Positions 23,574 to 23,838 of a stretch of 64,000 nt of DNA are shown one piece after another. The position numbers and the translations under genes are program-made. Each line of letters begins with the position of its first letter. Positions within the stretch are counted from its first letter, which is position 1. The notes beneath the pieces are model-generated. The model was given only the letters and a program-made list of their open reading frames with translations. It ran no database searches and was not told where the DNA came from. Source of the stretch: a virus; the IMG/VR virus record IMGVR_UViG_3300028840_003271, positions 106,005 to 170,004 of that record; one strand, written 5' to 3'.

Positions 23574-23838
23574 CATTACCTTGACAGTACTTCTCAGTAT
23601 GTTTGTTAAAGTAGACTTATATCAAAACTGTAGAAACACATATTTAAAATTGTAATACAGTCCCATGGTTTTTTATATCTTTATAAGATTAATAATAAAA
23701 ACCGACAATTTTGATACAAGTAGAAAAAAGTATAAAAAATCGTATTGGTTAGAATAATATATATTTTTATTTTTACTCAACCATTACTTTTTACATCTAT
23801 TTTGTTTATAGATTATAATAAAAGTAGAACCAATACGA
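23574..23838 (-). ncRNA. downstream array of three structured RNA motif copies (D3, D2, D1) 3' of the TnpB-like gene
   Basis: Each copy has TTCT-A-P1 / P1-T-C-[P2]-ATG. P1 helices: 23740-23750 with 23828-23838 (11 bp) and 23615-23631 with 23705-23721 (17 bp, both mismatches are G-U on the - strand). P2 stems at 23785-23826, 23667-23703 and 23577-23613 covary. Confidence 0.75.

What the first reader, a model, noticed from the sequence alone, without database searches (positions are those of the whole stretch)
23574..23838. Circularly permuted and nested copies of the same RNA motif
Seen: in the upstream copies P1 is a local hairpin 5' of P2 (TTT-AACATC-loop-GATGTT-C-P2-ATG). In D3 and D2 the order is permuted, so P1 closes around the variable segment (P1a-C-P2-ATGG-[26-27 nt]-TTCT-P1b). 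One 17-bp helix (ACTTGTATCAAAATTGT with ACAGTTTTGATATAAGT, two G-U pairs) carries the conserved TTCT-A / T-C junction at both ends, so D2 sits inside the P1 loop of D1. Copy C can adopt either topology because GATGTT has an AACATC partner on both sides. Inference: selection preserves a 3D junction regardless of strand connectivity, as seen in ribozymes and protein-bound RNA modules. The variable segment may be presented as an internal loop or released by cleavage of the long helix.
Basis: partly seen in the sequence, partly recalled or inferred. Interest (0 to 1): 0.8.

Follow-up and report, generated by a model that had tools for sequence, protein, structure and literature searches.

The report
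Permuted RNA modules beside phage Cas12f-like gene
The helices are real: three folded RNA modules, two closed around a variable stretch and two sharing one 17-bp stem, follow a small CRISPR-type (TnpB/Cas12f-like) gene in a 170-kb phage and are most likely that protein's RNA partners, an unusual form of a known kind of system.

Summary
On the minus strand, 23837-23573 holds three copies (D3, D2, D1) of a module also present three times upstream (25633-25372). Each copy reads TTYT-A[P1]T-C-[P2 bulged hairpin]-ATGR. In D3 and D2, P1 closes around P2 plus a 26-27-nt variable stretch. One 17-bp helix serves both D2 and D1. Predicted helix probabilities are 0.93 and 0.98. Helices pair within a module far better than between modules. 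All six copies lie at this one locus in the 170-kb genome.

The modules flank a 500-aa TnpB/Cas12f-like gene with a D-D-D RuvC triad. The gene sits in an accessory cassette that related phages lack. The genome has no TnpA, Cas1 or CRISPR array.

Eight loci of distant relatives (six distinct relative proteins) were read. Seven carry their own lineage-specific structured RNA units beside the gene, five on both sides. In near-identical strains, these units hold 5-6-nt hypervariable blocks just 5' of a closing strand.

Best reading (about 0.5): these are the effector's RNA partners, a hard-wired omega-RNA-like array built as three-way junctions with two strand connectivities. The variable stretch would carry specificity. 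No target, transcript or processing evidence was obtained, and no known ribozyme family matches. This scan has noted similar shape-conserved repeats beside phage Cas12-like genes on other DNA.

The parts
23841..25343 (-). 500-aa TnpB/Cas12f-like gene (P0001). RuvC-I is D264, RuvC-II is Asp370 in LCIDNI instead of the usual Glu, RuvC-III is D in HADINAA, and a CxxC...CxxC zinc-ribbon TNB domain is present.
   Evidence: Pfam PF07282 at 2.6e-13, above its cut-off. AF2 model pLDDT 74. Foldseek gives full-length matches to Cas12f, TnpB, Fanzor2, TranC and dCas12f. Family alignment A1. Below the NCBIfam TnpB cut-off, 43 vs 100 bits.
23741..23837 (-). Module D3 in closed (permuted) form: 10-bp P1 (23837-23828 with 23750-23741) around C, P2 (23826-23785), ATGG, a 26-nt variable stretch (23780-23755) and TTCT.
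   Evidence: P1 ensemble probability 0.93.
23615..23725 (-). Module D2 in closed form: TTCT, then a 17-bp P1 (23721-23705 with 23631-23615, two G-U pairs) around C, P2 (23703-23667), ATGG, a 27-nt variable stretch (23662-23636) and TTCT.
   Evidence: Helix probability 0.98. A 17-bp helix occurs in 6 of 1000 shuffles.
23573..23614 (-). Module D1: C, P2 (23613-23577) and ATGA. Its P1 is the same 17-bp helix seen from the other end, so D2 lies in the P1 loop of D1.
23540..23572 (-). A 10-nt tail and an intrinsic terminator (23562-23540) that ends the minus-strand transcript. It lies between convergent genes.
   Evidence: 10-bp stem, 6 G-C pairs, T-run.
25572..25633 (-). Module U1: TTT, local P1 hairpin AACATC/GATGTT, C, P2 (25613-25576), ATGG. 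It starts 7 nt after the stop codon of the upstream ORF.
25550..25571 (-). A 22-nt variable stretch between U1's ATGG and the TTTT-AACATC of U2. U1 can also close around it using U2's AACATC.
25481..25549 (-). Module U2: TTTT, P1 AACATC/GATGTT, C, P2 (25526-25485, one A-C mismatch), ATAA. This is the most degenerate copy.
25372..25433 (-). Module U3: TTT, P1 formed by a 16-nt perfect palindrome (25430-25415), C, P2 (25413-25376), ATGA. It ends 28 nt before the effector's start codon.

Best explanation
The three downstream copies and the three upstream copies are paralogous RNA modules made from the gene's own strand. They serve as the RNA partners of the adjacent phage TnpB/Cas12f-like protein. 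This is a hard-wired omega-RNA/crRNA-like array whose 'repeats' keep their fold but not their sequence.

Each module is a small three-way junction:
- P1;
- the bulged hairpin P2;
- a 2-4-bp P3 made by the conserved TTYT and ATGR flanks.

Two connectivities occur. In the upstream type, P1 is a capped hairpin and the variable stretch trails 3' of ATGR. In D3 and D2 (and optionally U1), the variable stretch caps P3, and P1 is formed by the module's two ends, so scaffold plus variable stretch form one closed unit. One 17-bp helix serves as P1 for both D2 and D1.

Shown here:
- the helices, their paralogue covariation and their restriction to this locus;
- the effector's fold;
- the accessory-cassette context;
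- analogous RNA units beside relatives of the gene.

Inferred:
- the protein binds the junction;
- the 22-27-nt stretch after ATGR carries target specificity;
- the long P1 helices either mark processing sites (for example for RNase III) that free each unit, or hold the stretch as a presented loop.

The invariant Asp at RuvC-II, and the loss of the RuvC-III Asp in about a third of relatives, suggest the family may act by binding or processing rather than by classical DNA cutting.
For: Placement and effector:
- The modules lie directly 3' and 5' of a protein whose predicted fold matches Cas12f, TnpB, Fanzor and TranC over its full length. It has a TNB domain above the Pfam cut-off.
- To my knowledge (not tested here), every characterised member of this superfamily works with a structured RNA.

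The modules:
- All six sit on the gene's strand, and a terminator closes the unit.
- G-U pairs and a 9 kcal/mol folding advantage favour the minus strand.
- Covariation between paralogues.
- No other copy anywhere in the 170-kb genome.

Relatives:
- Eight loci of relatives (six distinct proteins) were read. Seven show lineage-specific multi-copy structured units beside the gene: L002, L004, L005, L009 and L011 on both sides (1+1, 2+2, 4+1, 3+2, 1+1), L043 downstream only (upstream is ORF-like or contig edge), L044 upstream only. Units show compensatory changes between copies.
- In L005/L006/L007/L045/L046 the gene differs by at most 1 nt and the flanks are about 100% identical. Yet each RNA unit carries a fully replaced 5-6-nt block (2 nt in unit U3) just 5' of a CTT motif and the closing strand. 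L002 vs L008 show 6-7-nt block swaps in loops.
- That is the position occupied by the variable stretch followed by TTCT and the P1 strand in this window.

Genomic context:
- Related phages have an empty site between the same neighbour genes.
- The genome has no TnpA and no Cas1.

Published precedents:
- omega-RNA-like arrays and tandem single guide RNAs of dCas12f-sigmaE systems (PMC10691335, PMC13472631);
- degenerate-repeat crRNAs of the phage effector Cas12r (bioRxiv 10.64898/2026.04.20.719267).
Against: - No match for any variable stretch was found: the phage's own genome, viral contigs, 185,579 species genomes (13 hits to an 18-mer, about the ~17 I calculate for chance, none extending), GenBank phages and plasmids (best E 0.02-0.07 over AT-rich sequence), or the fetched loci.
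- In the predicted fold, the D3 and D2 variable stretches are about half paired and enclosed by P1. A free 3' guide as in TnpB or Cas12 would need processing.
- Two terminal copies run into the effector's ribosome-binding site (U3) and a terminator (D1), leaving little room for a guide.
- In several relatives the units abut without spacers, and their variable blocks are only 5-9 nt, too short for a conventional guide.
- The upstream modules are thermodynamically weak.
- Transcription and protein binding are untested.
Confidence: 0.5

Rival explanations
1. The modules are protein-binding or stability elements of the effector's own transcript, not guides. The junction would be an autoregulatory operator (U3 sits 28 nt before the start codon), and the other copies would be 5'/3' UTR processing or stabilising structures. 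The variable stretches would be unconstrained loops and linkers.
For: - U3 in this window and the last upstream unit in L009 and L004 abut the ribosome-binding site.
- The terminal copies leave no room for a guide.
- No target was found.
- The variable stretches of D3 and D2 simply cap a helix in the predicted fold.
Against: - Neutral loops would not be replaced wholesale while 5 kb of flank stays identical, as seen in relatives.
- Six copies, and separate arrays with their own terminator in L005 or their own promoter in L043, exceed what autoregulation needs.
- To my knowledge, no Cas12f/TnpB-fold protein is known to use RNA only as an operator.
Confidence: 0.2
2. The cassette is a decayed or trans-mobilised IS200/IS605-type or homing element. 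Only D1 plus the flanking DNA would be a working omega-RNA, with the flank (including the terminator) as its guide. The other copies would be duplicated, drifting relics or LE/RE-like end structures.
For: - The cassette (about 23563-25640) is absent from related phages, which keep the same neighbour genes around a ~100-nt terminator spacer.
- Units lie on both sides of the gene, like transposon ends.
- D1 is the last scaffold before the flank, as in TnpB elements.
- The family occurs in unrelated phage contexts.
Against: - No Y1 transposase anywhere in the complete genome, and only one TNB gene copy.
- Relics would lose pairing, yet 95 of 96 pairs are kept with compensatory changes.
- Multiple tandem units per side and strain-level hypervariable blocks are not features of IS ends.
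- The related phages are too distant (about 55% aa identity) to test a guide match to an empty site.
Confidence: 0.15
3. The modules are a new self-cleaving ribozyme, or another autonomous RNA, whose circular permutations resemble those of hammerhead or twister ribozymes. The neighbouring gene would be incidental.
For: A three-way junction with conserved junction nucleotides occurs in permuted connectivities, in tandem.
Against: - No Rfam family matches at E up to 1.
- The conserved junction nucleotides are few (TTYT, C, ATGR).
- The modules occur only beside this gene.
- Relatives of the gene carry different RNAs, so the RNA tracks the protein rather than standing alone.
Confidence: 0.03
4. 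Chance self-complementarity in AT-rich intergenic DNA, with no function.
For: - Helices of 11 bp or more arise in 71% of shuffles of this region.
- The upstream region's folding energy is ordinary.
Against: - Six descriptor hits on one strand in 2.1 kb, against about one per 20 kb elsewhere.
- Only 6 of 1000 shuffles reach a 17-bp helix.
- Module-specific complementarity.
- Flank motifs are conserved at both ends of the helix.
Confidence: 0.02

Closest known systems
omega-RNA-like arrays and tandem single guide RNAs of Cas12f-derived dCas12f-sigmaE systems (Altae-Tran et al. 2023, PMC10691335; Hoffmann et al. 2026, PMC13472631)
   Same: - A compact Cas12f/TnpB-fold protein with no CRISPR adaptation genes.
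- Whole scaffolds duplicated in tandem next to the gene.
- Irregular long 'repeats'.
- Unit sizes of 81-107 nt here, against 85-105 nt for those guide RNAs.
- Part of this protein family has lost a RuvC residue.
- One relative (L002) sits next to a small sigma-factor gene.
   Different: - Here the copies share fold but almost no sequence.
- They lie on both sides of the gene.
- Two are circularly permuted and two share one helix.
- No sigma factor lies beside the gene in this window.
- RuvC is D-D-D rather than truncated.
- dCas12f is not among the sequence matches of the family profile in the PDB.
- The host element is a phage.
Cas12r-CRISPR of Thermus Lalka phages (bioRxiv 10.64898/2026.04.20.719267)
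   Same: - A phage-encoded TnpB-like effector followed by degenerate repeats and unique spacers.
- No adaptation genes.
- A single repeat suffices to make a guide.
- Terminal 'extraneous' units run into flanking sequence.
   Different: - Cas12r repeats are 29 bp and recognisably alike in sequence.
- Its spacers are 31-33 nt and have identified protospacers.
- Here the 'repeat' is a three-way junction of about 60 nt with divergent sequence, and no protospacer was found.
TnpB omega-RNA (IS200/IS605) and TldR guide RNAs (bioRxiv 10.1101/2023.11.30.569447)
   Same: - A structured RNA encoded at or after the 3' end of the gene, on the same strand.
- The last scaffold (D1) abuts the flanking DNA.
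- Domesticated TnpB-like proteins occur in phages as RNA-guided regulators.
   Different: - No TnpA.
- RuvC-II is Asp.
- Several scaffolds instead of one.
- Copies lie upstream as well as downstream.
- Closed and permuted modules.
- The protein scores below the NCBIfam TnpB cut-off.
Circularly permuted natural RNAs (hammerhead types I-III, twister P1/P3/P5 forms) - from general knowledge
   Same: A multi-helix junction is kept while the open helix differs between copies.
   Different: Those are self-cleaving ribozymes with defined catalytic cores. There is no such core and no Rfam match here, and the permutation occurs among paralogues of one locus beside a Cas12f-like gene.

Membership tests
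TnpB / Cas12f superfamily (the protein) | WED-REC-RuvC-zinc-ribbon (TNB) fold | tested here: met
   Pfam PF07282 at 50.3 bits against a 26.3 cut-off. Foldseek E 6e-14 to AsCas12f over about 490 columns, plus TnpB, Fanzor2 and TranC. The family profile hits Cas12f at 2.9e-20.
TnpB / Cas12f superfamily (the protein) | RuvC D-E-D catalytic triad | tested here: not met
   RuvC-II is Asp370, invariant in 20 of 20 family members. RuvC-I D264 is invariant. The RuvC-III Asp is present here but replaced in about 7 of 20 relatives. Activity is unknown.
IS200/IS605 TnpB transposon | Associated Y1 (TnpA) or serine recombinase, and multiple copies in the genome | tested here: not met
   No PF01797 match in the complete 170-kb genome. 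Only one TNB gene scores above the cut-off. Neighbouring ORFs have no transposase domain.
IS200/IS605 TnpB transposon | A single omega-RNA at the 3' end whose guide is the flanking DNA | tested here: inconclusive
   D1 abuts the flank and terminator, but there are five further scaffolds, and no sufficiently close cassette-free phage exists to test the guide against an empty site.
CRISPR-Cas type V | An array of near-identical direct repeats with unique spacers | tested here: not met
   The repeat finder lists no such family in 22500-25000. Only U1 and U2 share a 6-bp stem. The copies share structure, not sequence.
CRISPR-Cas type V | Adaptation genes (cas1/cas2) | tested here: not met
   No Cas1 (PF01867) match in the genome.
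omega-RNA-like guide arrays (dCas12f-sigmaE type) | Tandem full scaffolds next to the effector gene | tested here: met
   Three modules downstream and three upstream, all on the gene's strand.
omega-RNA-like guide arrays (dCas12f-sigmaE type) | A 14-16-nt 3' guide with identifiable DNA targets | tested here: inconclusive
   22-27-nt variable stretches follow ATGG, but no target was found. RNA ends are unknown.
omega-RNA-like guide arrays (dCas12f-sigmaE type) | Operonic sigmaE partner | tested here: not met
   Neighbours in this window have no sigma domain. Only the relative L002 has a small Sigma70_r2 gene downstream.
Known self-cleaving ribozymes and other Rfam families | A match to a curated covariance model | tested here: not met
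   Rfam 15 scan of 22000-27000 at E up to 1 gave only one chance hit, a 26-nt viral pseudoknot at E 0.55, and it lies on the plus strand.

The most novel reading that the evidence does not exclude
This phage Cas12f-like D-D-D family may use compact junction RNAs that present a short, fast-evolving specificity segment inside a loop closed by the module's own ends. The segment is 5-9 nt in relatives and up to 27 nt here. That would be a guide held in a loop rather than at a free 3' end, which would explain both the permuted, closed modules in this window and the strain-level hypervariable blocks in relatives. It would be a new mode of target recognition for the TnpB/Cas12 superfamily.
Probability: 0.2. 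Interest if true: 0.85.

Novelty: new variant of a known kind. Interest (0 to 1): 0.62.

Why it matters
If these are the effector's RNAs, this locus shows a guide-RNA scaffold kept by shape alone, in two strand connectivities, and partly sharing a helix. That would widen what counts as a 'repeat' in TnpB-to-CRISPR evolution, and standard CRISPR finders miss such arrays.

The closed modules raise two possibilities: that guides are excised from long stems, or that they are presented in loops. The hypervariable blocks in relatives point to an arms race acting on these RNAs.

The protein is small (500 aa) and comes from a family that appears unannotated, scoring below the NCBIfam TnpB cut-off. Its RNA requirements would interest genome-tool developers and phage biologists alike.

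Tried and rejected
Target searches for the variable stretches:
- Own genome with mismatches and with 11-13-mers gave only chance-level AT-rich hits.
- A 20-mer of the D2 stretch in viral contigs gave none.
- An 18-mer in 185,579 species genomes gave 13 hits against my own estimate of about 17 by chance (2 x 596 Gb / 4^18), none extending.
- BLAST of the D2 and U1 stretches against GenBank phages and PLSDB plasmids gave a best hit of 24-25 of 26-27 nt. These were in Bacillus cereus-group megaplasmids and a Clostridium tetani plasmid, at E 0.02-0.07, partly covering the TTCT motif. I treat this as not significant after four searches.
- The D3 stretch resembles an AT-rich run inside the relative's own gene in L002/L008 (16 of 18). 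On inspection this is low-complexity similarity.

Orthologues and strain variants of this locus:
- None were found in 5.8 billion proteins, IMG/VR, JGI metagenomes or GenBank phages.
- The look-up by identity was empty.
- Hypervariability of this window's own stretches therefore could not be tested.

Other attempts:
- Short ORFs starting at the conserved ATG: 3-18 codons with no ribosome-binding site, so rejected (read).
- Pseudoknot between the P2 loop and the variable stretch, as in the L005-type units: no complementarity seen by eye.
- MAFFT alignment of the six P2 regions (A2) was out of register for U1 and D3. I therefore built no covariance model and counted pairs by script instead.
- An alignment-based locus search failed for lack of conserved peptide stretches.
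That step was left out, and no pattern search was possible afterwards.

Full report
**Context.** The window is the right-hand 64 kb of a complete 170,004-bp phage record with direct terminal repeats. It carries tail, DNA polymerase and ribonucleotide reductase genes. The finding (23574-23838) lies immediately 3' of the minus-strand ORF 23841-25343.

**The protein.**
- The 500-aa product (P0001) has a Cas12f1-like TNB zinc-ribbon domain above the Pfam cut-off.
- Its AlphaFold model (pLDDT 74) aligns over almost its full length with AsCas12f, CnCas12f1, SpCas12f1, ISDra2 and ISFba1 TnpB, Fanzor2, TranC and dCas12f.
- By sequence it is remote. It scores below the NCBIfam TnpB cut-off. Its nearest relative among 1.8 billion cluster representatives is 43% identical over half its length.
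- In an alignment of 20 family members, RuvC-I Asp264 is invariant. The RuvC-II position is an invariant Asp (LLCID) instead of the usual Glu. The RuvC-III Asp is kept here but replaced in about seven relatives.
- The complete genome has no Y1 transposase, no Cas1, and only this one TNB gene.

**The observation.**
- D3 is CGTATTGGTT-C-P2-ATGG-26 nt-TTCT-AACCAATACG.
- D2 is TTCT-ACTTGTATCAAAATTGT-C-P2-ATGG-27 nt-TTCT-ACAGTTTTGATATAAGT.
- The second 17-mer is followed directly by C-P2-ATGA (D1), a 10-nt tail and an intrinsic terminator.
- The minimum-energy fold reproduces all of this. The 311-nt stretch folds at z = -5.6.
- In the ensemble, the 10-bp helix has probability 0.93 and the 17-bp helix 0.98.
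- Upstream of the gene are three further copies with local P1 hairpins: U1 and U2 with AACATC/GATGTT, and U3 with a 16-nt palindrome.
- U1's GATGTT has an AACATC on either side, as stated.

**Is it more than chance?**
- Length alone is weak evidence in DNA this AT-rich. A helix of 11 bp or more appears in 71% of dinucleotide shuffles, but 17 bp appears in only 0.6%.
- The stronger evidence is positional. A descriptor (T-C, a bulged hairpin of 34-44 nt closed by at least 6 bp, ATG/ATA, plus a 6-nt partner for the strand before C preceded by a T-rich tetramer) recovers all six copies. It gives only 19 scattered hits in 340 kb of both strands, against 15.3 in shuffles.
- Complementarity is module-specific. 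P1 pairs 36/36 within modules against 46% between modules. The P2 outer stem pairs 35/36 against 72%, and the inner stem 24/24 against 59%. Most positions show three to five pair types.
- G-U pairs and a 9 kcal/mol advantage favour the gene's strand.
- The upstream copies are thermodynamically unremarkable.

**A sharper description of the permutation.**
- The two conserved flanks, TTYT before the P1 strand and ATGR after P2, can pair with each other over 2-4 bp in all six copies. ATAA goes with TTTT in U2, and G is always opposite the C of TTCT.
- The module is thus a three-way junction of P1, P2 and a short P3, with a single C between P1 and P2.
- In U1-U3, P1 is capped and P3 is open.
- In D3 and D2, P3 is capped by the variable stretch and P1 is open. 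This is a true circular permutation.
- Because both strands of the 17-bp helix start with A after TTCT and end with T before C, that helix is P1 for D2 from one end and for D1 from the other.
- In the predicted fold, the variable stretches are about half paired.

**Genomic setting.** Seventeen related phages share the two genes upstream: homologues of the 226-aa and 111-aa ORFs, the latter at about 55% identity. In most of them the 111-aa gene is followed by about 100 nt with a terminator and then a convergent gene. None encodes the Cas12f-like protein. The segment from about 23563 to 25640 is therefore an accessory cassette.

**Relatives of the protein.** I fetched eight loci for six distinct relative proteins. 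L002 and L008 encode P0003 and a 96%-identical homologue; the others are L004, L005 (with strain variants L006/L007), L009, L010, L011 (L012 identical), L043 and L044. They come from unrelated phage-like contexts.
- Seven of the eight have lineage-specific structured RNA units in several copies beside the gene, with compensatory changes between copies. In five of these the units lie on both sides.
- Counts (upstream + downstream): L005 has four plus one, L004 two plus two, L009 three plus two, L002 one plus one, L011 one plus one.
- L043 has two downstream units, each with its own promoter and terminator; its upstream flank is ORF-like or at the contig edge.
- L044 has several upstream units only.
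- L010 shows none.
- The RNAs differ between lineages, so they track the protein.
- A common plan recurs: a bulged hairpin, then a short variable segment, then a C/T-rich motif, then a strand that pairs back to an earlier part of the unit.

**An unexpected result.**
- L005, L006, L007, L045 and L046 encode the identical 490-aa protein. The gene differs by at most 1 nt, and about 5 kb of flank is essentially 100% identical.
- Yet each RNA unit carries a 5-6-nt block that is completely replaced between strains (in unit U3 only 2 nt differ). The block lies between the conserved TAAG(G) and CTT, and one linked nucleotide after the inner hairpin changes with it. Alleles assort independently between units.
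- By my count, about 17 of 28 block positions differ between L005 and L006. This compares with about 10 of 370 in the rest of the arrays and about 20 of 4,800 elsewhere.
- L002 and L008 show similar 6-7-nt block swaps in the large loops.
- These blocks behave like specificity determinants under diversifying pressure. They occupy the place held in this window by the variable stretch followed by TTCT and the P1 strand. That correspondence is my inference, not a demonstrated homology.

**What could not be shown.**
- No target was found for any variable stretch.
- There are no orthologous or strain-variant copies of this locus.
- No transcription data were obtained.
- No Rfam family matches.

**Interpretation.**
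- The best-supported reading is that these are the RNA partners of the Cas12f-like protein. They form an omega-RNA-like array of the kind described for Cas12f-derived systems (PMC10691335, PMC13472631) and for the phage effector Cas12r (bioRxiv 10.64898/2026.04.20.719267).
- Here the scaffolds are conserved only in shape, they lie on both sides of the gene, and they have two connectivities.
- The long P1 stems could be excision sites, or they could hold the variable stretch as a presented loop. The short hypervariable loops of relatives make the second idea worth testing.
- Rival readings remain open: pure autoregulatory or stability elements, a relic homing or IS cassette in which only D1 works, and (much less likely) a new ribozyme.
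- Earlier notes of this scan describe similar shape-conserved hairpin repeats beside phage Cas12-like genes on other DNA. I used them only as leads.

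Noticed in passing
L005:2665-3000 and 4471-4580; L006, L007, L045, L046 (equivalent stretches): Strains with an identical Cas12f-like gene and about 100% identical flanks differ by complete replacement of 5-6-nt blocks in each flanking RNA unit (2 nt in unit U3). One linked nucleotide after the inner hairpin changes with each block, and alleles assort independently between units.
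   Followed up: partly
L002:862-978 and 2290-2425 vs L008:1380-1500 and 2809-2944: 6-7-nt block substitutions sit at the 3' end of large hairpin loops beside the closest relative of the effector. That relative's downstream neighbour is a small sigma factor (Sigma70_r2 plus a GerE-like domain).
   Followed up: partly
L007:109-200 vs L005:2580-2660: The tRNA gene just upstream of the RNA array has a fully swapped anticodon stem, with compensatory changes, between otherwise identical strains.
   Followed up: no
L043:1478-1790: Two ~110-nt paralogous units downstream of a relative's gene each end in their own terminator. A consensus TTGACA-N17-TATAAT promoter lies between them. The units differ in an 8-9-nt internal block and by one compensatory pair, so they look like independent small-RNA genes.
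   Followed up: no
window 23790-23819 (+): A near-consensus sigma70-type promoter (TTTACA-18-TATAAT, 11 of 12) lies on the plus strand inside the P2 hairpin of D3, pointing antisense into the effector gene. It may be chance in AT-rich DNA.
   Followed up: no
window 25415-25430: The P1 of module U3 is a perfect 16-nt DNA palindrome about 70 nt upstream of the effector's start codon. It could also serve as an operator for a dimeric DNA-binding protein.
   Followed up: no
window 22508-23516 (+): Two convergent ORFs share a duplicated ~150-nt zinc-finger-like segment (22706-22855 vs 22947-23096, 74% identity; weak DUF6171 hits). The second ORF ends in a long Q/K/E-rich low-complexity repeat.
   Followed up: no
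window 23636-23662: The 27-nt variable stretch of D2 contains a degenerate copy of the following P1 strand (TACAATTTTAA vs TACAGTTTTGA). This gives an 8-bp alternative partner for the end of the 17-nt strand, though its ensemble probability is about 0.
   Followed up: partly
window 34047-36905 (-): A 952-aa glycosyltransferase ORF carries weak LAGLIDADG homing-endonuclease-like and ribonucleotide-reductase-like PHROG hits in its middle part (about residues 499-727).
   Followed up: no
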